Of a stretch of DNA of 12,094 nucleotides, positions 169-12,094 are shown piece after piece. Each line of letters begins with the position of its first letter. Position 1 is the stretch's first letter. Below the pieces are notes generated by a model, which saw only the letters and a list, made by a program, of their open reading frames with translations, was not told where the DNA came from and did not search any database. The stretch comes from a virus (Duplodnaviria > Heunggongvirae > Uroviricota > Caudoviricetes): positions 1-12,094 of the IMG/VR virus record IMGVR_UViG_2657245634_000013. The stretch is one strand, 5' to 3'. Both the position numbers and the translations under genes were made by a program.

Positions 169-253
169 AGGTAATTTAAAAACGGTTCTGTGAAAGTGAC
201 ACGAACCGATCTCCATCGATGTTACTCACCGATCTCCTTCACGGTAATACGCA
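1..253 (+). mobile_element. Right end of an IS21-family insertion sequence (istB 3' end plus terminal region); the exact terminus is uncertain, roughly 240-260
   Basis: IstB-like C-terminus followed by a non-coding stretch with the motif CCGATCTCC repeated directly at 215-223 and 232-240. Multiple subterminal repeats are typical of IS21-family ends. The terminus itself cannot be fixed without a reference copy. Confidence 0.4.
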
Positions 254-262
254 TTTTTCCCT

Positions 263-658
263 GTGGAGCTTAAAATCGCTTATCAGGAATCCGGCGAATG
301 GCCCGATGATGGAATCGAAATTGACGACACTGTTGCCGCCGAATTTATGAAGGAAGCACCAGAAGGAAAATACAGAGGTGTCATCGACGGAATGCCTGCA
401 TGGATTGATATTCCACCGCCAACTCATGAGGAACAAATTGCCGCAGCCGAACTGGAAAAGCAGCAATTGATTAATCAGGTCAACGAATACATAAACAGTA
501 AGCAATGGCCTGGTAAAGCGGCGATTGGTCGCCTGAAAGGTGAGGAACTGGCGCAATATAATTTGTGGCTGGATTATCTGGACACACTGGAACTGGTCGA
601 TACTTCCGGTGCGCCAGATATTGAATGGCCTACGCCTTCGGCAGTTCAGGCCAGATGA
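263..658 (+). pseudogene. Phage tail fibre assembly protein (Tfa/U-like chaperone), apparently 5'-truncated
   Basis: Translation ends ...LDTLELVDTSGAPDIEWPTPSAVQAR, the typical Tfa C-terminal motif (DTS.APD..WP). The frame opens only at 248 just after a TAA; the first possible start is a GTG at 263 with no RBS. The product is shorter (131 aa) than the neighbouring 185-aa Tfa and sits right against the IS end. Confidence 0.6.
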
Positions 659-1187
659 CATCCGGCGCAGTGCTGGTATCTGTTACCGTCACCGCGTCAA
701 TATAATCCAGCACGGCGTTAAGTCGGGTTGTTTCTGCCTGCGTCAGCTTCCGCCCGGCCTGTAATTTCAGTTGAATCAGACTGATGGAAGCCATTGCAGC
801 ATCAATCAGCGACTGGCGCTGTGCTTCTGCCGCGTCTAGTGCGGCACTATGCTGTGCCTCAGTATCTGTCATCCATTTCTCACCATCCCATTTATCGTAT
901 GGCGTTAACGGTGAAAGCGTGACATAACCGTCTTTGATGGCACCGATATAATCCACTGTAACAGCTACGCCATTTTCGATTGAGTAAACAGTCTCATTGC
1001 GGTGGTCTTCTTCATGGCTCCATCCCTTACCCGTAAATACTGCCACTTTCCCCGGAATGTATTCGCCCGGGTCAATACCAGTGGAACAGGCGGGCATACT
1101 TACGCCAGTATTAATATATTCATCAGACCAGCCCGAATATTCAGACGTTACTGCATCATAATAAAAACAACGCATATCACCCGGCAC
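630..1187 (-). CDS. Phage tail fibre assembly protein (alternative Tfa/U'-like chaperone of the invertible segment)
   Basis: 185-aa ORF ending ...LDYIDAVTVTDTSTAPDVIWPELPKA (Tfa C-terminal motif). It lies immediately downstream of the minus-strand tail-fibre exon and overlaps the plus-strand tfa convergently at 630-658. Start is GTG at 1187 or ATG at 1175. Confidence 0.75.
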   Translation of the reverse strand: MPGDMRCFYYDAVTSEYSGWSDEYINTGVSMPACSTGIDPGEYIPGKVAVFTGKGWSHEEDHRNETVYSIENGVAVTVDYIGAIKDGYVTLSPLTPYDKWDGEKWMTDTEAQHSAALDAAEAQRQSLIDAAMASISLIQLKLQAGRKLTQAETTRLNAVLDYIDAVTVTDTSTAPDVIWPELPKA

Positions 1188-1223
1188 TGTAGCCAGCCCA
1201 TTTTCATCAAAAAACAGGTTTCA

Positions 1224-1730
1224 TTATGCAGCCCTCACAATATAATTAAAGGCGATGTTACGTGGACGGTTTTCATTAGCTGTTGGCACGACACGAGAGG
1301 CGTCGAATCCAAGGTCATCGGTTTTGCCTATATCAGTTGTGTTATTCGGCATTCTCGCAGATCGTGTTCCTGCATCATAAAAAGCCCCTCTGATTGCATC
1401 AAAAGACATACCGATCCCGCCATCTGCGAATCCCTCAATATTTCTTATTGCATCCCCCTGTGAAGATAATAATTGTCGCCCGGCATCCACTCCACGTCCG
1501 TCATCCCAGCCACGAATAAATTCACCGCGTAAATCAGGCAATTTATTTGTCGGATAAACCTTTGCCAGTTCCGGGTATTCTTCAGCAGAAAAAGCCGCAC
1601 CGTTGCATTTCAGCCAGCCAGTAGGCGGTGTGGCTGAAGGCCACGGAACAGGCACACCAACGGGTAATGCCGAACCTTCTCCCAAACCAACGTTTATGAA
1701 AATGCAGAGATAACGGCTAACTGGCATCAT
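1224..1730 (-). CDS. Tail-fibre variable C-terminal exon (Mu S'v / P2 H C-terminus-like), silent orientation; the real tail-fibre portion is about 1224-1675
   Basis: Contains PVGVPVPWPSATPPTGWLKCNGAAFSAEEYPELAKVYPTNKLPDLRG and the C-terminal ...NIAFNYIVRAA, both characteristic of P2 H / Mu S variable domains. The first ~18 codons lie outside the crossover site and the frame is closed by TAA just upstream, as expected for the non-expressed copy of an invertible tail-fibre gene. Confidence 0.8.
   Translation of the reverse strand: MMPVSRYLCIFINVGLGEGSALPVGVPVPWPSATPPTGWLKCNGAAFSAEEYPELAKVYPTNKLPDLRGEFIRGWDDGRGVDAGRQLLSSQGDAIRNIEGFADGGIGMSFDAIRGAFYDAGTRSARMPNNTTDIGKTDDLGFDASRVVPTANENRPRNIAFNYIVRAA
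1676..1701. other. Putative DNA-invertase crossover site (gix/hix/pix-like)
   Basis: TTCTCCCAAACC-AA-CGTTTATGAAAA: two imperfectly inverted 12-bp half-sites around a 2-bp core, similar to hixL TTCTTGAAAACC-AA-GGTTTTTGATAA and gix TTATCCAAAACC-TC-GGTTTACAGGAA (quoted from memory). It sits at the constant/variable boundary of the tail-fibre exon and next to the invertase gene. Confidence 0.55.
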
Positions 1731-1757
1731 CTCCGGTTTTTATTCAGGGGGATGATC

Positions 1758-2351
1758 ATGCTTATTGGCTATGTACGCGTGTCAACAAATGACCAGAACA
1801 CGGAATTGCAGAGTAATGCGCTGGAGTGTGCAGGATGTGAGCTGATTTTTGAGGATAAAATCAGCGGCTCGAAGTCCGACAGGCCGGGGCTGAAAAAACT
1901 GCTCAGGACACTATCGGCAGGAGACACGTTGGTTGTCTGGAAGCTGGACAGACTGGGGCGCAGTATGCGGCATCTCGTTACGCTGATAGAAGAGTTGCGC
2001 CAGCGTGGTGTGAATTTCAGAAGCCTGACTGACAGTATTGATACCAGTACCCCAATGGGCCGTTTCTTTTTTCATGTCATGGGTGCCCTGGCTGAAATGG
2101 AGCGAGAACTCATTGTCGAGCGGACACGCGCAGGACTGGAAGCGGCCAGAGCCAAAGGTCGTATTGGTGGCAGACGACCGAAACTCACCGCGAGAGAGTG
2201 GGAGCAGGCAGGACGGTTGCTGGCTGCGGGGGAATCTCGTCAACGTGTGGCGCTGATTTTTGATATTGGCCTGTCCACGCTCTATAAAAAATTCCCCTCA
2301 TCAGCGACAAAGAATAAATTGTGTCATCCCTTAGCCAACCGGGACAAATAG
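1758..2351 (+). CDS. Serine DNA invertase of the Gin/Hin/Pin/Cin family
   Basis: MLIGYVRVSTNDQNTELQ...VVWKLDRLGRSMRHL...MGRFFFHVMGALAEMERELIVERT...GRIGGRRPKL...STLYKKFP: resolvase/invertase catalytic N-terminus with the catalytic Ser in VRVSTNDQ and a C-terminal HTH; closely resembles e14 Pin as recalled. The ATG at 1758 is preferred over 1752 because AGGGGG at 1744-1749 gives better RBS spacing. Confidence 0.9.
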   Translation: MLIGYVRVSTNDQNTELQSNALECAGCELIFEDKISGSKSDRPGLKKLLRTLSAGDTLVVWKLDRLGRSMRHLVTLIEELRQRGVNFRSLTDSIDTSTPMGRFFFHVMGALAEMERELIVERTRAGLEAARAKGRIGGRRPKLTAREWEQAGRLLAAGESRQRVALIFDIGLSTLYKKFPSSATKNKLCHPLANRDK

Positions 2352-2380
2352 CCTGACATCTCCGGCACAACTGAAAATAC
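2321..2380 (+). promoter_or_regulatory. Possible Ogr-dependent P2-type late promoter for the FI-FII-E-T-U-D operon
   Basis: TGT(2323-2325)-N12-AAC partial dyad about 50 bp upstream of a -10-like GAAAAT (2374-2379), 30 bp before the FI start. This resembles the P2 late-promoter architecture (TGT-N12-ACA centred near -55) but the match is imperfect. Confidence 0.25.
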
Positions 2381-2410
2381 CACTCACCCATTAACCACGG
2401 AGTTAAACGG

Positions 2411-3601
2411 ATGAGTGACTATCATCACGGCGTGCAGGTGCTGGAGATTAACGACGGCACCCGCGTCATTTCCACCGTATCCACTGCCATTGTCGGCATG
2501 GTCTGCACGGCCAGCGATGCGGATGCGGAAATCTTCCCCCTCAATAAACCGGTGCTGATCACCAATGTGCAGAGCGCGATTGCAAAGGCCGGTAAAAAAG
2601 GCACGCTGGCGGCATCGTTGCAGGCCATCGCTGACCAGTCAAAACCGGTCACCGTTGTCGTGCGCGTGGAAGACGGCACCGGCGACGACGAAGAAACGAA
2701 ACTCGCGCAGACCGTTTCCAATATCATCGGCACCACTGACGAAAACGGTCAGTACACCGGACTGAAAGCCCTGCTGGCGGCGGAGTCGGTTACCGGTGTT
2801 AAACCGCGTATTCTCGGTGTGCCGGGACTGGACACCAAAGAGGTGGCGGTTGCACTGGCATCAGTCTGTCAGAAGCTGCGCGCTTTCGGGTATATCAGCG
2901 CATGGGGCTGTAAAACCATTTCCGAGGTGAAAGCCTACCGCCAGAATTTCAGCCAGCGTGAGCTGATGGTCATCTGGCCGGATTTCCTCGCATGGGATAC
3001 GGTCGCCAGTACCACCGCCACCGCGTATGCCACCGCCCGTGCGCTGGGCCTGCGCGCTAAAATCGACCAGGAGCAGGGCTGGCATAAAACGCTGTCCAAC
3101 GTCGGGGTAAACGGTGTTACCGGCATCAGTGCCTCTGTATTCTGGGATTTGCAGGAGTCCGGCACCGATGCTGACCTGTTGAACGAGTCAGGTGTCACAA
3201 CGCTGATTCGCCGTGACGGTTTCCGATTCTGGGGTAACCGTACCTGCTCTGATGACCCGCTGTTCCTCTTTGAAAACTACACCCGCACCGCGCAGGTGCT
3301 GGCCGACACGATGGCTGAGGCGCACATGTGGGCGGTGGACAAGCCCATCACCGCAACGCTGATTCGCGACATCGTTGACGGCATCAATGCCAAATTTCGT
3401 GAGCTGAAAACAAACGGCTATATCGTGGATGCGACCTGCTGGTTCAGCGAAGAATCCAACGATGCGGAAACCCTTAAGGCCGGAAAACTGTATATCGACT
3501 ACGACTATACCCCGGTTCCTCCTCTTGAAAACCTGACCCTGCGCCAGCGTATTACCGATAAATACCTGGCAAATCTGGTCACCTCGGTTAACAGCAATTA
3601 A
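2411..3601 (+). CDS. FI: Contractile tail sheath protein (P2 gpFI)
   Basis: 396-aa ORF beginning MSDYHHGVQVLEINDGTRVISTVSTAIVGMVCTASDADAE..., essentially matching P2 FI as recalled; same length as P2 FI; GGAG RBS at 2400-2403. Confidence 0.95.
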   Translation: MSDYHHGVQVLEINDGTRVISTVSTAIVGMVCTASDADAEIFPLNKPVLITNVQSAIAKAGKKGTLAASLQAIADQSKPVTVVVRVEDGTGDDEETKLAQTVSNIIGTTDENGQYTGLKALLAAESVTGVKPRILGVPGLDTKEVAVALASVCQKLRAFGYISAWGCKTISEVKAYRQNFSQRELMVIWPDFLAWDTVASTTATAYATARALGLRAKIDQEQGWHKTLSNVGVNGVTGISASVFWDLQESGTDADLLNESGVTTLIRRDGFRFWGNRTCSDDPLFLFENYTRTAQVLADTMAEAHMWAVDKPITATLIRDIVDGINAKFRELKTNGYIVDATCWFSEESNDAETLKAGKLYIDYDYTPVPPLENLTLRQRITDKYLANLVTSVNSN

Positions 3602-3613
3602 GGAGCCTGACCG

Positions 3614-4132
3614 ATGGCAATGCCGCGCAAACTCAAGTTAATGAACGTCTTTCTGAACGGCTACAGCTATCAGGGCGTTGCAAAGTCCGTCACGCTGCCA
3701 AAACTGACCCGTAAACTCGAAAACTATCGCGGTGCGGGGATGAACGGAAGCGCACCGGTAGACCTCGGCCTTGATGACGATGCGCTGTCAATGGAGTGGT
3801 CGCTCGGGGGCTTCCCGGATTCGGTTATCTGGGAGCTTTACGCCGCAACCGGCGTGGATGCCGTACCGATTCGTTTTGCAGGCTCTTACCAGCGCGACGA
3901 TACCGGCGAAACGGTAGCCGTTGAAGTGGTCATGCGTGGACGTCAGAAAGAAATCGACACCGGCGAGGGTAAACAGGGAGAAGACACCGAGTCGAAAATC
4001 TCCGTAGTCTGCACCTATTTCCGGCTGACGATGGACGGTAAGGAGCTGGTCGAAATCGACACCATCAACATGATTGAGAAGGTGAACGGCGTCGACCGGC
4101 TGGAGCAACACCGCCGCAATATCGGCCTGTAA
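3614..4132 (+). CDS. FII: Tail tube protein (P2 gpFII)
   Basis: 172-aa ORF MAMPRKLKLMNVFLNGYSYQGVAKSVTLPKLTRKLENYRGAG... directly after the sheath gene; AAGGAG RBS at 3599-3604; length equals P2 FII. Confidence 0.95.
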   Translation: MAMPRKLKLMNVFLNGYSYQGVAKSVTLPKLTRKLENYRGAGMNGSAPVDLGLDDDALSMEWSLGGFPDSVIWELYAATGVDAVPIRFAGSYQRDDTGETVAVEVVMRGRQKEIDTGEGKQGEDTESKISVVCTYFRLTMDGKELVEIDTINMIEKVNGVDRLEQHRRNIGL

Positions 4133-4188
4133 TTTTCATCCGGTCAGTCAGGCTGACCGGTTAACCCCGATTCAGAAGTGAGAAAACC

Positions 4189-4464
4189 ATGAACAAAGAA
4201 AATGTCATTACCCTGGACAATCCGGTCAAACGTGGTGAGCAGGTTATCGAACAGGTCACGCTGATGAAACCCAATGCCGGGACGCTGCGCGGTGTCAGTC
4301 TGGCAGCGGTCGCGAACTCCGAAGTCGATGCACTGATTAAGGTGCTGCCGCGCATGACGGCACCGATGCTGACCGAGCAGGAAGTCGCCGCGCTGGAACT
4401 GCCTGACCTTGTGGCGCTGGCCGGTAAGGTGGTCGGTTTTTTGTCGCCGAACTCGGTGCAGTGA
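4189..4464 (+). CDS. E: Tail assembly chaperone (P2 gpE)
   Basis: 91-aa ORF MNKENVITLDNPVKRGEQVIEQVTLMKPNAG... in the position and size of P2 E; contains the TTTTTTG slippery heptamer near its 3' end. Confidence 0.9.
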   Translation: MNKENVITLDNPVKRGEQVIEQVTLMKPNAGTLRGVSLAAVANSEVDALIKVLPRMTAPMLTEQEVAALELPDLVALAGKVVGFLSPNSVQ

Positions 4465-4616
4465 CGTTTCCAAAAAATCTCTCGGTCGATGACCTGATGG
4501 CGGATGTGGCAGTGATATTTCACTGGCCGCCATCAGAACTGTATCCCATGAGCCTGACCGAACTCATCACATGGCGCGAAAAGGCGCTCCGGCGAAGCGG
4601 AAACACGAATGAGTAA
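4189..4616 (+). CDS. Tail assembly chaperone frameshift product (P2 gpE+E'), made by -1 ribosomal frameshift at T_TTT_TTG (4437-4443)
   Basis: After a -1 slip at 4437-4443 the new frame stays open and reads ...FVAELGAVTFPKNLSVDDLMADVAVIFHWPPSELYPMSLTELITWREKALRRSGNTNE, ending at TAA 4614-4616 and overlapping the T start. This is the conserved E/E' (lambda G/GT-type) arrangement. Confidence 0.8.
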
Positions 4617-7056
4617 CAATGTAAAATTACAGGTATTGCTCAGGGCTGTTGACCAGGCATCCCGCCCGTTTAAATCCATCCGCACAGCGAGTAAGTCGCT
4701 GTCGGGGGATATCCGGGAAACACAAAAATCACTGCGCGAGCTGAACGGTCAGGCATCCCGTATTGAGGGATTCCGCAAGACCAGTGCACAGCTCGCCGTG
4801 ACTGGTCATGCACTTGAAAAGGCACGGCAGGAGGCCGAAGCCCTTGCCACACAGTTTAAAAATACCGAACGTCCGACCCGTGCTCAGGCGAAAGTGCTGG
4901 AATCCGCAAAGCGTGCGGCGGAGGACTTACAGGCGAAATATAACCGCCTGACGGATTCCGTTAAACGCCAGCAGCGGGAACTGGCCGCTGTGGGAATTAA
5001 TGCCCGCAATCTTGCACATGATGAGCAGGGACTGAAAAACCGTATCAGTGAAACCACCGCACAACTTAACCGTCAGCGCGACGCGCTGGCGCGTGTCAGT
5101 GCGCAACAGGCAAAACTTAACGCAGTAAAACAGCGTTATCAGGCCGGAAAGGAACTGGCCGGAAATATGGCCTCAGTAGGCGCTGCCGGTGTGGGGATTG
5201 CGGCGGCGGGAACGATGGCCGGAGTTAAGTTGCTGATGCCCGGTTATGAGTTTGCGCAGAAAAACTCAGAATTGCAGGCCGTGCTAGGTGTGGCAAAAGA
5301 CTCCGCCGAAATGGCTGCACTACGCAAGCAGGCGCGCCAGCTCGGCGACAACACCGCCGCCTCGGCGGATGATGCTGCCGGTGCACAGATTATTATCGCG
5401 AAAGCCGGTGGGGATGTTGATGCCATTCAGGCGGCAACGCCGGTCACGCTGAATATGGCGCTGGCGAACCGTCGCACGATGGAAGAAAACGCCGCCCTGC
5501 TGATGGGGATGAAATCCGCCTTTCAGCTTTCAAACGATAAGGTCGCTCATATCGGGGATGTTCTCTCCATGACGATGAACAAAACCGCCGCCGATTTTGA
5601 CGGCATGAGCGATGCGCTGACCTATGCCGCACCTGTGGCAAAAAATGCCGGTGTCAGCATTGAAGAAACCGCCGCAATGGTCGGGGCGCTGTATGATGCA
5701 AAAATCACAGGCTCAATGGCGGGGACGGGAAGCCGTGCCGTGTTAAGCCGCCTGCAGGCACCGACGGGAAAAGCATGGGATGCACTCAAAGAGCTTGGAG
5801 TGAAAACCTCAGACAGCAAGGGAAACACCCGACCAGTATTTACCATTCTGAAAGAAATGCAGGCCAGTTTTGAGAAAAACCGGCTCGGTACTGCCCAGCA
5901 GGCTGAATACATGAAAACTATTTTCGGGGAGGAGGCCAGCTCAGCCGCCGCCGTGCTGATGACTGCCGCCTCAACCGGAAAGCTGGACAAACTGACCGCT
6001 GCGTTTAAAGCCTCAGACGGGAAGACCGCCGAGCTGGTAAATATCATGCAGGACAACCTCGGCGGTGACTTTAAAGAGTTTCAGTCCGCTTATGAGGCGG
6101 TGGGGACTGACCTGTTTGACCAGCAGGAAGGCGCACTGCGTAAGCTCACGCAGACGGCCACAAAGTATGTGTTAAAACTCGACGGCTGGATACAGAAAAA
6201 CAAATCACTGGCGTCAACCATCGGCATCATTGTCGGTGGTGCACTGGCACTGATTGGTGTCATCGGTGCCATTGGCCTCGTAGCCTGGCCGGTTATCACC
6301 GGCATCAATGCCATCATCGCGGCAGCAGGCGCAATGGGGGCAGTCTTCACGACGGTTGGCAGTGCTGTTATGACCGCCATCGGGGCTATTAGCTGGCCGG
6401 TTGTGGCCGTGGTGGCCGCAATTGTCGCCGGGGCGTTGCTTATCCGTAAATACTGGGAGCCTGTCAGCACATTCTTTGGCGGTGTGGTGGAAGGGCTGAA
6501 AGCGGCATTTGCGCCGGTGGGGGAACTGTTCACGCCACTTAAGCCGGTGTTTGACTGGCTGGGCGAAAAGTTACAGGCCGCGTGGCAGTGGTTTAAAAAC
6601 CTGATCGCCCCGGTTAAAGCCATCCAGGACACCCTGAACCGTTGCCGTGACACGGGCGTCATGTTCGGGCAGGCACTGGCTGACGCGTTGATGCTGCCGC
6701 TTAATGCGTTCAACAAACTGCGCAGTGGTATTGACTGGGTACTGGAAAAACTCGGTGTTATCAACAAAGAGTCAGACACACTTGACCAGACCGCCGCCAG
6801 AACTCATGCCGCCACGTATGGCACCGGTGGTTATATTCCGGCGACCAGCTCTTATGCAGGCTATCAGGCTTATCAGCCGGTTACGGCACCGGCTGGCCGC
6901 TCTTATGTGGACCAGAGTAAAAACGAATATCACATCAGTCTGACGGGCGGTACTGCGCCGGGGACTCAGCTCGACCGCCAGTTACAGGATGCGCTCGAAA
7001 AATACGAGCGGGATAAACGTGCGCGCGCCCGTGCCAGCATGATGCATGACGGTTAA
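4609..7056 (+). CDS. T: Tail tape measure protein (P2 gpT)
   Basis: 815-aa ORF with an N-terminal coiled-coil-rich region and a long Gly/Ala-rich hydrophobic segment (aa about 530-600), typical of tape measure proteins. Same length and position as P2 T. Confidence 0.95.
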   Translation: MSNNVKLQVLLRAVDQASRPFKSIRTASKSLSGDIRETQKSLRELNGQASRIEGFRKTSAQLAVTGHALEKARQEAEALATQFKNTERPTRAQAKVLESAKRAAEDLQAKYNRLTDSVKRQQRELAAVGINARNLAHDEQGLKNRISETTAQLNRQRDALARVSAQQAKLNAVKQRYQAGKELAGNMASVGAAGVGIAAAGTMAGVKLLMPGYEFAQKNSELQAVLGVAKDSAEMAALRKQARQLGDNTAASADDAAGAQIIIAKAGGDVDAIQAATPVTLNMALANRRTMEENAALLMGMKSAFQLSNDKVAHIGDVLSMTMNKTAADFDGMSDALTYAAPVAKNAGVSIEETAAMVGALYDAKITGSMAGTGSRAVLSRLQAPTGKAWDALKELGVKTSDSKGNTRPVFTILKEMQASFEKNRLGTAQQAEYMKTIFGEEASSAAAVLMTAASTGKLDKLTAAFKASDGKTAELVNIMQDNLGGDFKEFQSAYEAVGTDLFDQQEGALRKLTQTATKYVLKLDGWIQKNKSLASTIGIIVGGALALIGVIGAIGLVAWPVITGINAIIAAAGAMGAVFTTVGSAVMTAIGAISWPVVAVVAAIVAGALLIRKYWEPVSTFFGGVVEGLKAAFAPVGELFTPLKPVFDWLGEKLQAAWQWFKNLIAPVKAIQDTLNRCRDTGVMFGQALADALMLPLNAFNKLRSGIDWVLEKLGVINKESDTLDQTAARTHAATYGTGGYIPATSSYAGYQAYQPVTAPAGRSYVDQSKNEYHISLTGGTAPGTQLDRQLQDALEKYERDKRARARASMMHDG

Positions 7057-7070
7057 GGAGGTGACGAAAA

Positions 7071-7550
7071 ATGATGCTCGCGTTAGGTATGTTTGTTTTT
7101 ATGCGCCAGACGCTGCCACACCAGACCATGCAGCGTGAATCAGATTATCGCTGGCCGTCAAATTCCCGTATCGGTAAACGGGATGCCTTTCAGTTTCTCG
7201 GTGTTGGCGAGGAAAACATCACGCTTGCCGGTGTGCTTTATCCCGAACTGACCGGCGGAAAGCTGACGATGACCACGCTCAGGCTGATGGCAGAGGAAGG
7301 CCGGGCGTGGCCGTTGCTGGATGGCACAGGCATGATTTACGGCATGTATGTCATCAGCAGGGTGAGTGAAACAGGGAGTATTTTCTTTGCAGACGGCACA
7401 CCCCGGAAAATTGATTTTACGCTGTCGCTCACCCGCGTGGATGAATCACTGGCCGCGCTTTATGGCGATATCGGTAAACAGGCGGAGTCGCTCATCGGTA
7501 AAGCTGGCAGTATGGCGACCAGATTCACGGGTATGACGGGGGCGGGATAA
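7071..7550 (+). CDS. U: Tail protein (P2 gpU)
   Basis: 159-aa ORF after T with AAGGAGG RBS at 7055-7061; its stop overlaps the D start (TAATG), indicating translational coupling. Length and order as in P2. Confidence 0.9.
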   Translation: MMLALGMFVFMRQTLPHQTMQRESDYRWPSNSRIGKRDAFQFLGVGEENITLAGVLYPELTGGKLTMTTLRLMAEEGRAWPLLDGTGMIYGMYVISRVSETGSIFFADGTPRKIDFTLSLTRVDESLAALYGDIGKQAESLIGKAGSMATRFTGMTGAG

Positions 7551-8713
7551 TGCTGGATGCACTGACATTTGATGCAGGCAGTACGCTGACGCCGGATTAC
7601 ATGCTGATGCTCGACAGCAGGGATATTACCGGCAATATCAGCGACCGTCTGATGAGTATGACCCTGACGGATAGCCGGGGCTTTGAGGCTGACCAGCTTG
7701 ATATTGAACTGAACGATGCCGACGGGCAGGTCGGGCTGCCGGTTCGTGGTGCTGTTCTGACGGTGTATATCGGCTGGAAAGGTTTTGCCCTGGTATGCAA
7801 AGGGAAATTCACCGTTGATGAGGTTGAACACCGGGGCGCGCCGGATGTTGTCACCATCCGCGCCCGGAGTGCAGATTTTCGCGGGACGCTCAATTCCCGC
7901 CGTGAAGGCTCATGGCATGACACCACGCTCGGTGCGATTGTTGAGGCGATAGCCTCCCGTAACAGGCTGAAAGCCAGTGTCGCTCCGTCACTGGCCGGAA
8001 TTAAAATCCCGCACATCGACCAGTCGCAGGAGTCTGATGCGAAATTCCTGACCCGTCTTGCAGAACGCAACGGCGGTGAGGTGTCGGTAAAAATGGGAAA
8101 ACTGTTGTTTCTCAAAGCGGGGCAGGGGGTGACGGCCAGCGGTAAAAAAATCCCGCAGATTACCATCACCCGCAGCGACGGCGACCGCCATCATTTTGCG
8201 ATTGCTGACCGTGGAGCCTATACCGGCGTAACGGCAAAGTGGTTACACACCAAAGACCCGAAGCCGCAAAAGCAGAAGGTAAAACTGAAACGCAAAAAGA
8301 AAGAAAAACACCTGCGCGCACTGGAGCACCCGAAAGCAAAACCGGTCAGGCAGAAGAAAGCGCCAAAAGTACCGGAAGCGCGCGAAGGTGAATACATGGC
8401 CGGTGAGGCTGACAACGTTTTTGCCCTGACCACGGTATATGCCACGAAAGCACAGGCCATGCGTGCCGCTCAGGCGAAGTGGGATAAACTGCAACGGGGC
8501 GTTGCGGAGTTCTCCATCAGCCTGGCTACCGGTCGTGCAGATATTTACACGGAAACACCGGTCAGAGTGTCAGGCTTTAAGCGCGTCATAGACGAGCAGG
8601 ACTGGACCATCACTAAGGTGACACATTTTCTGAATAATAGCGGCTTCACGACGTCCTTAGAGCTTGAGGTCAGGCTTTCTGATGTGGAGTACGAAACAGA
8701 AGATGATGAGTGA
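7550..8713 (+). CDS. D: Tail protein D (P2 gpD, late control gene D)
   Basis: 387-aa ORF MLDALTFDAGSTLTPDYMLMLDSRDITGNISDRLMSMTLTDSRGFEADQLDIELNDADG... with a Lys-rich linker; length and position as in P2 D. Confidence 0.95.
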   Translation: MLDALTFDAGSTLTPDYMLMLDSRDITGNISDRLMSMTLTDSRGFEADQLDIELNDADGQVGLPVRGAVLTVYIGWKGFALVCKGKFTVDEVEHRGAPDVVTIRARSADFRGTLNSRREGSWHDTTLGAIVEAIASRNRLKASVAPSLAGIKIPHIDQSQESDAKFLTRLAERNGGEVSVKMGKLLFLKAGQGVTASGKKIPQITITRSDGDRHHFAIADRGAYTGVTAKWLHTKDPKPQKQKVKLKRKKKEKHLRALEHPKAKPVRQKKAPKVPEAREGEYMAGEADNVFALTTVYATKAQAMRAAQAKWDKLQRGVAEFSISLATGRADIYTETPVRVSGFKRVIDEQDWTITKVTHFLNNSGFTTSLELEVRLSDVEYETEDDE

Positions 8714-8794
8714 CGTTTTTATTTTATCTATTTGTTTTATAAGGATAAATTAACTAAAATGGCACCATCAACAAAACCGGAAGAGGTGCTCGCG

Positions 8795-9013
8795 ATGTTT
8801 CATTGTCCTTTATGCCAGCATGCCGCACATGCGCGTACAAGCCGCTATATCACTGACACGACAAAAGAGCGTTATCATCAGTGCCAGAACGTGAATTGCA
8901 GTGCCACGTTCATCACTTATGAGTCGGTACAGCGATACATCGTGAAGCCGGGAGAAGTCCACGCCGTAAGGCCGCACCCGTTGCCGTCAGGGCAGCAAAT
9001 TATGTGGATGTGA
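8795..9013 (+). CDS. ogr: Late gene transcriptional activator Ogr (zinc-finger)
   Basis: 72-aa product MFHCPLCQHAAHARTSRYITDTTKERYHQCQNVNCSATFITYESVQRYIVKPGEVHAVRPHPLPSGQQIMWM with the Cys-X2-Cys...Cys-X4-Cys zinc-binding motif. The ORF-track start at 8732 is an in-frame upstream extension; the ATG at 8795 gives the canonical 72-aa Ogr. Confidence 0.95.
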   Translation: MFHCPLCQHAAHARTSRYITDTTKERYHQCQNVNCSATFITYESVQRYIVKPGEVHAVRPHPLPSGQQIMWM

Positions 9014-9023
9014 TCACAAAAAT

Positions 9024-9050
9024 AGCCCCTCAGTTGAGGGGCTTTATTTA
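9024..9050 (+). terminator. Rho-independent terminator downstream of ogr
   Basis: Stem AGCCCCTC / GAGGGGCT with loop AGTT, followed by TTTATTTA, starting 11 bp after the ogr stop. Confidence 0.7.
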
Positions 9051-9056
9051 TGGTCG

Positions 9057-9075
9057 ATGTGGACGTTATGTGGAC
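9057..9075 (+). repeat. Tandem direct repeat ATGTGGAC-gtt-ATGTGGAC (11-bp spacing); candidate integrase arm-type binding sites in the prophage att arm
   Basis: Exact 8-bp repeat at 9057-9064 and 9068-9075, in non-coding DNA between the last phage gene and host sequence. Confidence 0.45.
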
Positions 9076-9081
9076 AGTGGT

Positions 9082-9103
9082 TGATATAAATCCATTTATA
9101 TCA
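9082..9103. repeat. Perfect 10-bp inverted repeat TGATATAAAT-cc-ATTTATATCA in the att region
   Basis: Exact palindrome read directly from the sequence; AT-rich; lies between the direct repeats and the host-like terminator. Confidence 0.6.
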
Positions 9104-9111
9104 TCAGGTTA

Positions 9112-9168
9112 GGTGCTTTTTTGTGACACCATCCCTGTCTTCCCCCACATGATGTGGGGGTTTTTTTT
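9112..9168 (+). ncRNA. Possible CpxQ-like sRNA remnant (3' UTR of cpxP); 5' boundary uncertain
   Basis: Terminator hairpin plus upstream GACACCATCCCTGTCTTCCCCC, recalled as the conserved part of CpxQ; no cpxP coding sequence is visible upstream, consistent with the prophage junction lying at the cpxP 3' end. This is from memory and unverified. Confidence 0.35.
9142..9168 (+). terminator. Rho-independent terminator, probably the host cpxP terminator (3' end of the CpxQ sRNA region)
   Basis: Stem CCCCCACAT / ATGTGGGGG followed by eight T residues. The preceding GACACCATCCCTGTCTTCCCCC matches my recollection of the cpxP 3' UTR / CpxQ, and fieF lies directly downstream as in the E. coli cpxP-fieF arrangement. 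Confidence 0.6.
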
Positions 9169-9249
9169 ATCCTCAATTTGCCTGCTGCTTAATGCATTGC
9201 AGATGATTTGCTTCCGTTATACTAGCGTCAGTTGATAGCGGGAGTATTT

Positions 9250-9867
9250 ATGAATCAATCTTATGGACGGCTGGTCAGTCGGGCGGCGATTGCTGCGACG
9301 GCGATGGCTTCGTTGCTATTGCTGATTAAAATTTTTGCATGGTGGTATACCGGGTCGGTGAGTATTCTCGCCGCGCTGGTGGATTCGCTGGTGGATATCG
9401 GCGCGTCGTTGACGAATTTACTGGTGGTGCGATATTCCCTGCAACCTGCCGACGATAATCACTCGTTTGGTCACGGTAAAGCAGAGTCCCTCGCGGCGCT
9501 GGCGCAAAGTATGTTTATCTCCGGTTCGGCACTATTCCTGTTTTTGACGGGTATTCAACATCTGATATCTCCAACACCGATGACAGATCCAGGCGTCGGG
9601 GTTATCGTGACAATTGTGGCGCTAATTTGTACGATTATCCTTGTCTCGTTTCAGCGTTGGGTGGTGCGCCGGACGCAAAGCCAGGCGGTGCGGGCTGATA
9701 TGCTACATTACCAGTCTGATGTTATGATGAACGGCGCAATTCTGCTGGCGCTGGGGTTGTCCTGGTACGGCTGGCATCGCGCCGATGCTCTGTTTGCATT
9801 GGGAATCGGCATCTATATTTTATATAGCGCGTTACGCATGGGATATGAGGCGGTACAGTCATTACTG
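9250..9867 (+). pseudogene. fieF: Cation-diffusion-facilitator ferrous iron/zinc efflux protein FieF (YiiP), 3'-truncated after about codon 206
   Basis: [86 protein letters not shown]... matches FieF up to ...[10 protein letters not shown]; GGAG RBS at 9242-9245. After about 9867 the frame continues only as antisense read-through of the autotransporter gene, and the cytoplasmic C-terminal domain (expected DRALPDEERQ...) is absent. Confidence 0.85.
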
Positions 9868-12063
9868 GCTGTGACCATTCATATCCAGTTCAGTCTCTGC
9901 CGCCAGACGCAGTTCATGGGTATTACCCAACACGTTATCGTTATTCAACAAAAGCGTCCCACTGCGCAGATCGGTAACACCGGTATAGTCGTTGTCTTTG
10001 TTAGAAAGCGATACGGTCTGACCCTTCTGGCTGCTGAATGCCAGGTCACCACTGCCGGTAATCTTTGCGCTGAGATCGGCGGCATTCTCGCTTTTACCGT
10101 TAGAGCTCAGCACCAGAGCATCGCTGTCGGTAGCGTGTAAATCAAGCTGGGTCAGGCCGTAACCGATATACAGACCGTCATTGTTTACCCCACTCGTCAG
10201 ACGATAGTCGTAAGTGCCGACGGCCGCTTTTTGCCCATTCTGCTGAATATCACGTTGGGCACTGCTGGAGAGGATTTGCCCATTTTTATCCTGCAATTGC
10301 AGATTGCCCGCATCGCCCAGAACTTCCGCACCTTGCGCATCAACCAACTTAATGGTGCTGTTACCATCATCGACTTCAGTGAGCGATAACGCAGAGTCAA
10401 TATCACGAGATACTGAGCTTACAACGTCACTGTCAGAAACCTGAATCACACCCTCGCCGCGCAAATCCAGCGTTTTACTAACGTTGACCGTCCCTTCTGT
10501 CATCTGTGCACCTGCTGTCAGGGCACCAAAATCAACGGTTCCGCCGGAGAATCCCAAAGTGCTAATGGAGTGAGCGCCCTTACCCACTATTACCTGGCTT
10601 CCCTGACCCGCAGTGATCCCGCCTCTCTGCAGAAACTCAGCATTCTTTTCCAGGTTAAATGTCGTGTTCTGGAACGCCAGTGAACCCTGGAACCAGTCTG
10701 TATAAGCAAACTCATCGAAGGAGAATTCGTGATTCCCCATGTTTATTTCAACAATACCTCTACCTTGAAGATCGTTATCAAATACCCAATCTTTATTGGC
10801 ATTGATTTGCAGTTTGCCATCAACATCCAGGTCCGCACGGCCGATGTTCTTGTCTTCAGAAATAACCGCGACAGCACCAGAAGCGACATCAATATATCCG
10901 CTGAATGCATAGTTATTGCCGGTCAGTGCCACTGTCCCACTGTCGATACTTATTGTACCATTGCCGGAAATCTTATTGGCAAAGGTCATGCTATCGTCAG
11001 CCTTCAGGTGTAATTTCCCGCGGTTGTTGATCTCTGCTGTACCTATATTTTGGGTGATCCCTAAAGCGCCATTTTGCTCAATTTTGACTTTACCACTAAA
11101 GGCAGAGTTATCACCGGTTAAGTAAGTCGTGCCATTGAGCGCATTGATATAGCCCAGGCCCTCGCTGCCACTGACAATATCCGCGGAAATAGTCGCGTTT
11201 TTATCCGTGTGGTTTAAGGTGATTTTCTTATCGGATGTCTTTGCCCACACAAACTCAATTTTTTCGGCATCAATAATCCCTGCAGCCTTCGCAGCACTTC
11301 CTTCCTGTGCACCTAACGCTAACTCAGAGTTGGTGCTTAAACTAATTTTCGGTGCGGATATTTTACCTCCATCTGATACGACTAATGTTGTATCAGAACG
11401 TTGGTCGTAATAACCCAGGCTAATATGTTCACGAGCATTAACTTCACCGCCGTTATTAACTGACAGGTACTGATTACCACCGTAACTGCCGTAAACGCCC
11501 ATAAAGAAGGTTTTAGAATTTACCTGGCTGCCTTCACCACTGACATTTCCCTGCAAATAGGTCAGACGGCTGGTGCCCTTAACATGGATTTTGCCGCCGT
11601 TGGAGACATTAAAATAGCCGCGATCGTGTCTCATGCCTGAGTTTGACTCATACAAATCATCAGCATATAACTCGCTGCCAGCATTGGAGACATTCAGGAA
11701 CCCCGTACCTTTCAGCAAAAAGTTAAGTGGGCCATTGATAGTTACCTTTCCTCCGGTAATATCCAACCCACCACCAGAAGCGAGAGTCAGACGCGGACGG
11801 GAAGTATCTGTCGCATTGATTACCAGATTGGCATTGTCAGTCACCGTAATACGGTAATCGATGCTCTGGTTCTCTTTGCCAAAATCAATAGTTTTATCCT
11901 GGTTTACGATGACATCATCGGCGAATACCAGAGATGAATATAAACTTATCGCGCTAATTAAAACAGCCCGGGACTTTTTTCCTTTTACTCTGCTCCCCAG
12001 CTCCGAGCAGACGCTCCAACAGTTACGGGACCTGTTCCACTTTAGCCGATATATTTTATTCAT
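9862..12063 (-). pseudogene. Autotransporter adhesin (type Va), signal peptide plus beta-helical passenger domain, 3'-truncated (no beta-barrel translocator)
   Basis: N-terminus MNKIYRLKWNRSRNCWSVCSELGSRVKGKKS... is an extended signal peptide region (ESPR) typical of autotransporters, followed by a Gly/Asn/Ser/Thr-rich repetitive passenger (GNxxxSG-type beta-helix repeats). The ORF ends ...ELDMNGHSQ with its stop codon supplied by fieF-derived sequence at 9862-9864. Lower GC than the flanking sequence. The likely start is the ATG at 12061-12063, not the track start at 12087. Confidence 0.75.
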
Positions 12064-12094
12064 CACAATCTCCAGCAATACATCCAAATAAAAC

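What the first reader, a model, noticed from the sequence alone, without database searches (positions are those of the whole stretch)
9112..9168. Prophage appears integrated at the 3' end of cpxP; CpxQ-like terminator retained upstream of fieF
The hairpin and U-tract at 9142-9168, preceded by GACACCATCCCTGTCTTCCCCC, resemble the cpxP terminator / CpxQ sRNA, and fieF follows as in the E. coli cpxP-fieF arrangement, yet no cpxP coding sequence lies upstream, only phage DNA. This implies the P2-like phage uses the cpxP 3' end as attB, analogous to integration into tRNA or sRNA 3' ends. Whether CpxQ is still produced from the attL side would matter for envelope-stress regulation.
Basis: partly seen in the sequence, partly recalled or inferred. 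Interest (0 to 1): 0.5.

Follow-up and report, generated by a model that had tools for sequence, protein, structure and literature searches.

The report
P2-like prophage junction in CpxQ
This is the right-hand junction of a common P2-like (WPhi-type) prophage that inserts into the end of the E. coli cpxP gene, where the small RNA CpxQ is made; the phage carries its own copy of that end and so rebuilds the gene, which makes this an ordinary, already described integration site.

Summary
Window 9125-9171 is a 47-bp copy of the E. coli cpxP 3' UTR (CpxQ nt 15-58 plus ATC). P2-like phage DNA (gpD, ogr, ogr terminator, att arm) lies to its left and the fieF upstream region and gene to its right.

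It is the attR junction of a WPhi/L-413C-type P2-like prophage. In a near-identical lysogen (strain 15A, 99.99% over 8.2 kb) the same 47 bp recurs about 32 kb away, between an intact cpxP and an integrase 98% identical to WPhi Int. There it rebuilds full-length CpxQ.

About 15% of 5,426 complete E. coli genomes are split at exactly this core. WPhi-like integrases sit behind the CpxQ terminator in at least 13 of 94 informative Enterobacterales species representatives.

A loop SNP (window 9152) places strand exchange 5' of the terminator loop. The hairpin in the window is therefore the original host terminator, and cpxP now ends in a phage-supplied one.

The window copy lacks the 5' seed, the RNase E site and any predicted promoter. 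It most likely acts only as recombination core and terminator.

The site is already published as the WPhi attB (cpxP-fieF). I found no paper making the CpxQ link. Interest is low.

The parts
7550..8713 (+). P2 gpD-like tail/baseplate hub gene (phage late gene, context)
   Evidence: Pfam Phage_GPD, 93 bits. Annotated 'phage late control D family protein' in the 99.99%-identical prophage of strain 15A.
8795..9013 (+). ogr, the P2-type late-gene activator and last phage gene before the attachment site
   Evidence: Pfam Ogr_Delta zinc finger, 76.9 bits. Annotated ogrK in strain 15A.
9024..9043 (.). ogr terminator hairpin (8-bp stem, T-rich on both sides)
   Evidence: The terminator scan finds it on both strands.
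9046..9124 (+). Phage arm of the attachment site. It holds direct repeats ATGTGGAC at 9057-9064 and 9068-9075 (candidate Int arm-type sites), a perfect 10-bp palindrome at 9082-9103, and an IHF-like TATCATCAGGTTA at 9099-9111.
   Evidence: Near-identical to the same arm of WPhi and L-413C attP. The same TGTGGAC x2 motif recurs in the other arm beside int. Protein binding is inferred from P2 literature recalled from memory and was not tested.
9125..9171 (+). 47-bp att core, attR copy: CpxQ nt 15-58 plus ATC
   Evidence: Identical in WPhi, L-413C and the 15A attL, with 45 of 47 shared by a 186-like phage. K-12 attB differs only at 9152. E. coli genomes with a split site break exactly at these boundaries.
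9142..9168 (+). Rho-independent terminator (stem 9142-9149/9153-9160, loop UGA, U8). It is the original host cpxP/CpxQ terminator, now separated from cpxP.
   Evidence: Host origin is inferred from allele segregation at 9152.
9152..9152 (+). Loop SNP (A here, C in K-12; CpxQ nt 42), used to locate the strand exchange
   Evidence: Every scorable attP and attL carries A. attR carries A or C. Lysogen H9Ecoli has attL=A and attR=C.
9172..9249 (+). Host cpxP-fieF intergenic DNA (fieF upstream region), unchanged by the insertion
   Evidence: Collinear with all unoccupied E. coli genomes.
9250..9868 (+). fieF, first 206 codons only. Homology to fieF stops at 9868.
   Evidence: Pfam Cation_efflux, 174.7 bits. 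Comparison with strain 15A fieF.

Best explanation
Window 9125-9171 is the attR copy of the 47-bp core of a WPhi/L-413C-type P2-like prophage, integrated by its tyrosine integrase into the 3' UTR of cpxP, inside the CpxQ sRNA.

Shown:
- The phage attP carries an exact copy of CpxQ nt 15-58 plus 3 nt.
- Integration duplicates this core. The int-side junction (attL) reads cpxP, then CpxQ nt 1-14 (host), then the core. The ogr-side junction (attR, in the window) reads phage arm, core, fieF.

Inferred from allele segregation: strand exchange lies 5' of the terminator loop, within 9125-9151. A candidate overlap is the 7-bp CCATCCC (9130-9136), flanked by the inverted GACA/TGTC. It follows that cpxP/CpxQ at attL ends in a phage-supplied terminator, and that the hairpin in the window is the original host terminator.

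Inferred from sequence: CpxQ at attL is identical to the majority E. coli allele, so CpxQ output should be unchanged. The window copy has no cpxP promoter, no RNase E site and no 5' seed. It probably serves only as the recombination core for excision and as a second terminator that shields fieF from ogr read-through.
For: - Unoccupied genomes match the window only from 9125 onwards, and 606 genomes carry the whole ogr-core-fieF junction.
- Strain 15A is 99.99% identical to window 1676-9868. It has a complete P2-like prophage bounded by fieF|ogr and int|cpxP, with the cpxP product identical to K-12 (WP_001223800.1).
- attL, attR, attB and attP align with a 47-bp shared core.
- The 15A integrase is 98% identical to WPhi Int and has Int_N and Phage_integrase domains.
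- A rebuilt attP matches L-413C at 99.2% and WPhi at 88% over 256 nt.
- 4,591 of 5,426 genomes have an uninterrupted site. The other 835 lack a contiguous match, and the split genomes sampled break at the core boundaries.
- Loop allele: about 20% of empty sites carry C. None of 531 attL of this arm type carries C. In the fetched loci attL is 33 A and 0 C, attR is 24 A and 4 C, and every attP is A. H9Ecoli has attL=A and attR=C.
- Literature: WPhi and L-413C integrate at MG1655 4104392 with identical cores (PMC3448106), and the E. coli W paper lists 'cpxP-fieF: Wphi1 (P2)' (PMC3032704). CpxQ is 58 nt, and its 5' end is the seed for nhaB and cfa (PMC6755755).
- No sigma-70-like promoter is predicted in 8700-9300.
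Against: - The window does not contain the int end, so the attL statements rest on near-identical genomes, not on the source genome.
- The crossover position rests on one informative SNP and population counts, not on biochemistry.
- Some A-allele attR copies escaped megablast, probably because of low-complexity masking. Allele frequencies in lysogens are therefore estimates from spread samples.
- No expression data were available.
Confidence: 0.95

Rival explanations
1. The attR/attP-borne CpxQ fragment is expressed. In this reading ogr or late-operon transcripts read through the weak ogr terminator and end at 9168, giving an Hfq-binding RNA with the CpxQ body and terminator but a phage-derived 5' end. 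Such an RNA could act as a decoy or as an sRNA with an altered seed.
For: The fragment keeps the complete terminator and U8 tail. The ogr terminator has an interrupted T-run, TTATTTATGG. The same arrangement is conserved in free phage genomes.
Against: No promoter is predicted between ogr and the core. The arm is explained by Int/IHF-type site conservation. The 5' seed used for nhaB and cfa (nt 1-14, C11) is missing (PMC6755755). No expression data exist.
Confidence: 0.06
2. Integration damages cpxP/CpxQ, so lysogens have an altered envelope-stress response.
For: The insertion lies inside the 58-nt sRNA. Some other phage types supply a variant U-tract, GGGGGTCTTTTTTTTC, at attL (L010, L050, L101).
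Against: For this phage type attL reproduces CpxQ base for base, with the loop allele found in most E. coli and in other Enterobacterales. Predicted structure and energy are the same for both alleles. The CpxP protein is unchanged.
Confidence: 0.03
3. The hairpin is the phage's own terminator and resembles the cpxP terminator only by chance, or the junction is an assembly artefact.
For: The window is chimeric further downstream, at 9868/9869.
Against: The match to K-12 attB is 46 of 47 and runs on without a break into host DNA. The 22-mer is not expected by chance. The identical junction occurs in 606 complete genomes.
Confidence: 0.01

Closest known systems
Coliphage WPhi and Yersinia/E. coli phage L-413C attachment site (attB between cpxP and fieF, MG1655 4104392)
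   Same: Identical 47-bp core. The left arm is near-identical to both, and the right arm is 99% identical to L-413C. The integrase is 98% identical to WPhi Int. The host site and prophage orientation are the same (PMC3448106; PMC3032704).
   Different: Nothing essential. This prophage carries other cargo (a tail-fibre invertase segment, ParB-like and methyltransferase genes in strain 15A). Its right arm is of the L-413C type rather than the WPhi type.
P2-family integration at other small-RNA genes (P2 at cyaR, P2-like at rybB, elements at ssrA; the sdsR locus in Salmonella)
   Same: The 3' end or terminator of a conserved Hfq-type sRNA gene serves as attB, and the phage supplies a replacement 3' end (PMC3032704 Table 2; PMC3333887).
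   Different: Here the sRNA is not a separate gene but a 3'-UTR fragment cut from an mRNA, so the phage rebuilds the end of a protein-coding transcript as well. The core is long: 47 bp, against 27 bp for P2 (the P2 figure is from memory).
Phage 186 / HP1-type integration into tRNA genes
   Same: The phage carries the 3' part of the target gene, so the gene is rebuilt at one junction and a partial copy is left at the other (PMC3448106).
   Different: The target is an sRNA/mRNA terminator, not a tRNA. The integrase is of the P2 type.
CpxQ sRNA
   Same: Window 9125-9168 equals CpxQ nt 15-58, including the small 5-bp hairpin and the terminator.
   Different: The window copy has no cpxP promoter or mRNA, no RNase E site, and lacks nt 1-14 (the seed). 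It is a gene fragment, not a CpxQ gene.

Membership tests
WPhi-type P2-like prophage attachment junction (attR) | Core sequence identical to the WPhi/L-413C attP core | tested here: met
   47 of 47 identical to WPhi (AJ245959) and L-413C (AY251033) attP.
WPhi-type P2-like prophage attachment junction (attR) | Host site is the cpxP-fieF intergenic region | tested here: met
   Host homology starts at 9125 and continues into fieF. The published site is in PMC3448106 and PMC3032704.
WPhi-type P2-like prophage attachment junction (attR) | Prophage bounded by direct repeats of the core, with int at one end and ogr at the other | tested here: met
   Shown in strain 15A (99.99% identical to the window) and in H9Ecoli. 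The window itself holds only the ogr end.
WPhi-type P2-like prophage attachment junction (attR) | P2-type tyrosine integrase of WPhi specificity | tested here: met
   The 15A integrase is 98% identical to WPhi Int and has Int_N and Phage_integrase domains. This is proxy evidence, because int is outside the window.
WPhi-type P2-like prophage attachment junction (attR) | Arm-type Int sites and IHF site in the phage arm, and excision competence | not testable with these tools
   The motifs are present (ATGTGGAC x2 and an IHF-like site). Binding and excision need experiments.
CpxQ sRNA gene | Lies in the 3' UTR of cpxP and is transcribed from the cpxP promoter | tested here: not met
   Phage genes gpD and ogr lie upstream, and the window has no cpxP.
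CpxQ sRNA gene | 58-nt RNA with a 5' seed (nt 1-14, C11), released by RNase E | tested here: not met
   Nt 1-14 (UUUUCCUUGCCAUA) are replaced by the phage sequence GGTGCTTTTTTGT. The seed is defined in PMC6755755.
CpxQ sRNA gene | Rho-independent terminator with U-tail (Hfq-binding 3' module) | tested here: met
   8-bp stem and U8, with the same fold as K-12 CpxQ.
CpxQ sRNA gene | Match to a curated RNA family | tested here: inconclusive
   Nothing reaches a gathering score in the window. The only related model, Hrs1 RF02628, hits the opposite strand below threshold.

The most novel reading that the evidence does not exclude
WPhi-type phages across Enterobacterales carry three quarters of the host sRNA CpxQ. 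This copy may be more than a recombination site. It could be transcribed as the distal 3' end of ogr or late transcripts, from attP during lytic growth and from attR in lysogens. That would give an Hfq-binding CpxQ look-alike without the host seed, which could titrate Hfq or retarget envelope-stress regulation. In addition, phage-supplied terminator variants at attL could tune CpxQ levels in the roughly 15% of E. coli that are lysogenic at this site.
Probability: 0.06. Interest if true: 0.55.

Novelty: already known. Interest (0 to 1): 0.2.

Why it matters
The practical value is correct annotation. The hairpin upstream of fieF in such genomes is a prophage junction, not a stray sRNA gene, and CpxQ should be annotated at the int end of the prophage.

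Two modest additions to the published WPhi attB came out of this work:
- The attB lies inside CpxQ. In about 15% of sequenced E. coli, and in other Enterobacterales, at least the terminator loop and everything 3' of it in the working CpxQ is therefore encoded by phage DNA.
- Strand exchange maps 5' of the terminator loop.

Neither changes how the Cpx response is understood, unless expression studies show that the phage-borne copy or the variant terminators alter CpxQ output.

Tried and rejected
- Rfam at gathering thresholds found nothing in the window. At relaxed thresholds only Hrs1 appeared, on the wrong strand, plus chance terminator hits.
- A promoter scan of 8700-9300 found no sigma-70-like site that could drive the attR copy.
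- Literature searches pairing CpxQ with prophage or attB found no paper that connects the WPhi site with CpxQ. Three primary papers were not held: Karlsson 2006, Liu and Haggard-Ljungquist 1999, and Chao and Vogel 2016. The '47-nt core' in the WPhi literature and the second CpxQ seed region therefore could not be checked against the sources.
- Narrowing the crossover further failed. The left part of the core (9125-9146) is invariant in every phage and host sequence retrieved, partly because it was the search key.
- No clear inverted repeats were found at the ends of the inverted tail-fibre segment.
- I rejected chance resemblance, assembly artefact at the att junction, and destruction of cpxP/CpxQ (see rival explanations).

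Full report
**1. The observation**

- GACACCATCCCTGTCTTCCCCC sits at 9125-9146. It is the only match in the window, and none occurred in 200 shuffles even with three mismatches allowed.
- An 8-bp G+C-rich stem with a 3-nt loop lies at 9142-9160, followed by T8 at 9161-9168.
- The fieF start codon is at 9250, and the product matches Pfam Cation_efflux.
- Upstream lie phage genes only: gpD (7550-8713, Phage_GPD) and ogr (8795-9013, Ogr_Delta). ogr has its own hairpin terminator at 9024-9043.

**2. Identity of the stretch**

- A megablast of 8900-9400 against 5,426 complete E. coli genomes hit all of them. Unoccupied genomes align only from window 9125 rightwards, while 606 genomes carry the complete ogr-hairpin-fieF arrangement.
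- In K-12 the matching bases lie directly after cpxP. The stop codon ends at locus position 2477 and the match starts at 2501.
- CpxQ is a 58-nt RNA cut by RNase E from the cpxP 3' UTR, and its 5' end is the seed for nhaB and cfa; a C11G change weakens cfa repression (PMC6755755, PMC9438474). Counting 58 nt back from the last U puts CpxQ nt 1 at K-12 locus 2487, which gives a C at position 11 as that paper requires.
- Window 9125-9168 is therefore CpxQ nt 15-58. Nt 1-14 (UUUUCCUUGCCAUA) are replaced in the window by phage sequence.

**3. The other end of the prophage**

- Strain O111:H21 15A is 99.99% identical to window 1676-9868. It has a complete P2-like prophage between fieF|ogr and int|cpxP-cpxR-cpxA, and its CpxP protein is the same as in K-12.
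- The int-side junction reads cpxP ... TTTTCCTTGCCATA [47-bp core] AATTACTTAC ... int. The ogr-side junction is the window.
- The repeat is GACACCATCCCTGTCTTCCCCCACATGATGTGGGGGTTTTTTTTATC, at window 9125-9171.
- Across E. coli, 4,591 of 5,426 genomes have an uninterrupted cpxP-fieF. The other 835 (15%) lack a contiguous match, and the split genomes in the spread sample end at precisely these two boundaries.

**4. The phage**

- A rebuilt attP (window arm, core, 15A int-side arm) matches L-413C at 99.2% and WPhi at 88% over 256 nt. It also matches some 60 other P2-like phage records.
- The 47-bp core is identical in WPhi, L-413C, the window and the 15A attL. A 186-like circular element shares 45 of the 47 bp although its arms are unrelated.
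- The 15A integrase is 98% identical to WPhi Int and 67% identical to the integrase of the 186-like element. It has Int_N and Phage_integrase domains.
- The literature already places WPhi and L-413C at MG1655 coordinate 4104392 with identical cores (PMC3448106). The E. coli W genome paper lists 'cpxP-fieF: Wphi1 (P2)' next to P2-like insertions at rybB, cyaR and ssrA (PMC3032704). The integration site is therefore known.
- I found no paper in the searchable library that notes this attB lies inside CpxQ.

**5. Where the strands exchange**

One base in the core is polymorphic: window 9152 (CpxQ nt 42, third loop base) is A or C.
- All phage attP copies carry A.
- Roughly 20% of empty E. coli sites, K-12 among them, carry C.
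- An attL query written with C found 531 genomes with this arm type, and the best-ranked ones all had one mismatch. No attL with C exists among them.
- In the fetched loci (mostly IMG/VR viral contigs) attL is 33 A and 0 C, while attR is 24 A and 4 C.
- Strain H9Ecoli has attL=A and attR=C in one prophage.

The base at attL thus comes from the phage and the base at attR from the host, which places the crossover 5' of 9152, within 9125-9151. Two consequences follow. The terminator hairpin in the window is most likely the original host cpxP terminator. The terminator now used by cpxP/CpxQ is phage DNA. A plausible overlap region is CCATCCC (9130-9136), between the inverted GACA and TGTC; this is an inference from geometry only.

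**6. Consequences for CpxQ and fieF**

- At attL the 58-nt CpxQ is reproduced exactly, with the A allele. That allele is the majority in E. coli and is the form seen in other Enterobacterales with this stem.
- Predicted fold and energy are the same for both alleles. I therefore expect normal CpxQ output. This is inferred, not measured.
- The window copy has no cpxP promoter, no processing site and no 5' seed. No sigma-70-like promoter is predicted in 8700-9300.
- Its likely roles are substrate for excision and a second terminator behind the weak ogr terminator, keeping phage transcription out of fieF. The fieF upstream region (9172-9249) is untouched.

**7. Breadth**

- The 22-mer occurs in 68 IMG/VR viral contig stretches, as attL, attR or attP with several different arm types.
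In all 120 the 22-mer is preceded by the same TTCCTTGCCATA.
- The terminator stem, by contrast, varies by compensatory changes: ACATGATGT, GCATGATGC, TCATGATGA, GCCATGATGGC, ACCGAAAGGT, TCAGTCATGA.
- At least 13 of the 94 stretches with enough downstream sequence have a WPhi-like integrase (60-88% identity), antisense, mostly about 100-210 bp behind the terminator. Hosts include Salmonella, Kosakonia, Yokenella, Serratia, Rosenbergiella and Tatumella.
- Where the site is occupied, the terminator at attL is of the host lineage's own type. This suggests the phage cores track their hosts' CpxQ, as seen with tRNA-targeting integrases. That reading is an inference.

**8. Verdict**

The feature is an ordinary attR junction of a known phage family at a known site. 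The CpxQ overlap and the crossover side are small additions. The only unexcluded unusual reading is that the phage-borne CpxQ fragment is itself expressed, and nothing here supports it.

**9. Side findings**

- The window is chimeric at 9868/9869, where fieF codon 206 joins the antisense strand of ehaA.
- The tail-fibre segment 251-1690 is inverted relative to strain 15A and lies beside a serine invertase gene.
- Rfam family Hrs1 is the reverse complement of CpxQ.

Noticed in passing
window 9865-12094 (junction at 9868/9869): fieF stops after codon 206 and joins, through a 4-nt overlap (CTGG), the antisense strand of the autotransporter gene ehaA (N-terminal ~733 codons, start codon near 12063 on the minus strand). 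ehaA lies elsewhere in the chromosome, and none of 5,426 complete E. coli genomes spans this joint. It is either an assembly or concatenation chimera or a private rearrangement.
   Followed up: partly
window 251-2351: Window 251-1690 (tail-fibre and tail-fibre-assembly genes) matches the strain 15A prophage in the opposite orientation to the rest of the window. It lies next to a serine invertase gene (1752-2351, Resolvase + HTH_7). This looks like a Mu G / P1 C-type invertible host-range segment caught in the other phase. No clear flanking inverted repeats of 16 nt or more were found.
   Followed up: partly
window 9102-9168 minus strand; L003 2472-2544; L115, L076, L124, L122: Rfam has no CpxQ model that scores here. 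Rfam Hrs1 (RF02628, 'Hfq-regulated sRNA 1') matches the strand opposite to CpxQ. It is below threshold in E. coli (31.8 and 41.4 bits) and above threshold in four Erwinia and Pantoea loci (58-74 bits). Its consensus begins with A7 followed by a hairpin, which is a reverse-complemented terminator. Hrs1 appears to be CpxQ filed on the wrong strand.
   Followed up: yes
window 9152; K-12 locus L003 2528: The CpxQ terminator loop is polymorphic in E. coli. The K-12 allele (C) is the minority, at roughly 20% of empty sites. A is the majority allele, is found in every phage attP examined, and is typical of other Enterobacterales. With A, 9142-9160 is a perfect 9+1+9 palindrome.
   Followed up: yes
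loci L010, L050, L101, L104 (attL of other phage types): Some P2-like phages at this site supply a different 3' end to CpxQ: GGGGGTCTTTTTTTTC in place of GGGGGTTTTTTTTATC, and in L010 also an A-to-G change in the stem. Lysogens of those phages therefore make a CpxQ with an altered U-tail.
   Followed up: no
loci L076-L195 (120 Enterobacterales species representatives): The first 36 nt of CpxQ are strongly conserved from Escherichia to Pantoea, Erwinia, Rahnella and Serratia, and TTCCTTGCCATA directly precedes the 22-mer search key in all 120 stretches. The terminator stem changes only through compensatory pairs. At least 13 of 94 informative genomes carry a WPhi-like integrase just downstream.
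   Followed up: partly
window 9057-9111: The phage arm holds two direct ATGTGGAC repeats (9057-9064, 9068-9075), and a third ATGTGGA lies at the end of ogr (9002-9008). It also holds a perfect 10-bp palindrome TGATATAAAT/ATTTATATCA (9082-9103) and an IHF-like TATCATCAGGTTA (9099-9111). The right half of the terminator (GATGTGGGGG) resembles the arm repeat.
   Followed up: no
L002 (NZ_JBQJRQ010000002.1, 32,330 bp circular 'plasmid unnamed3'): A record annotated as a plasmid in an E. coli assembly is a complete circular P2/186-like phage genome with the CpxQ core as attP next to int. It is probably an excised or replicating phage genome rather than a plasmid.
   Followed up: partly
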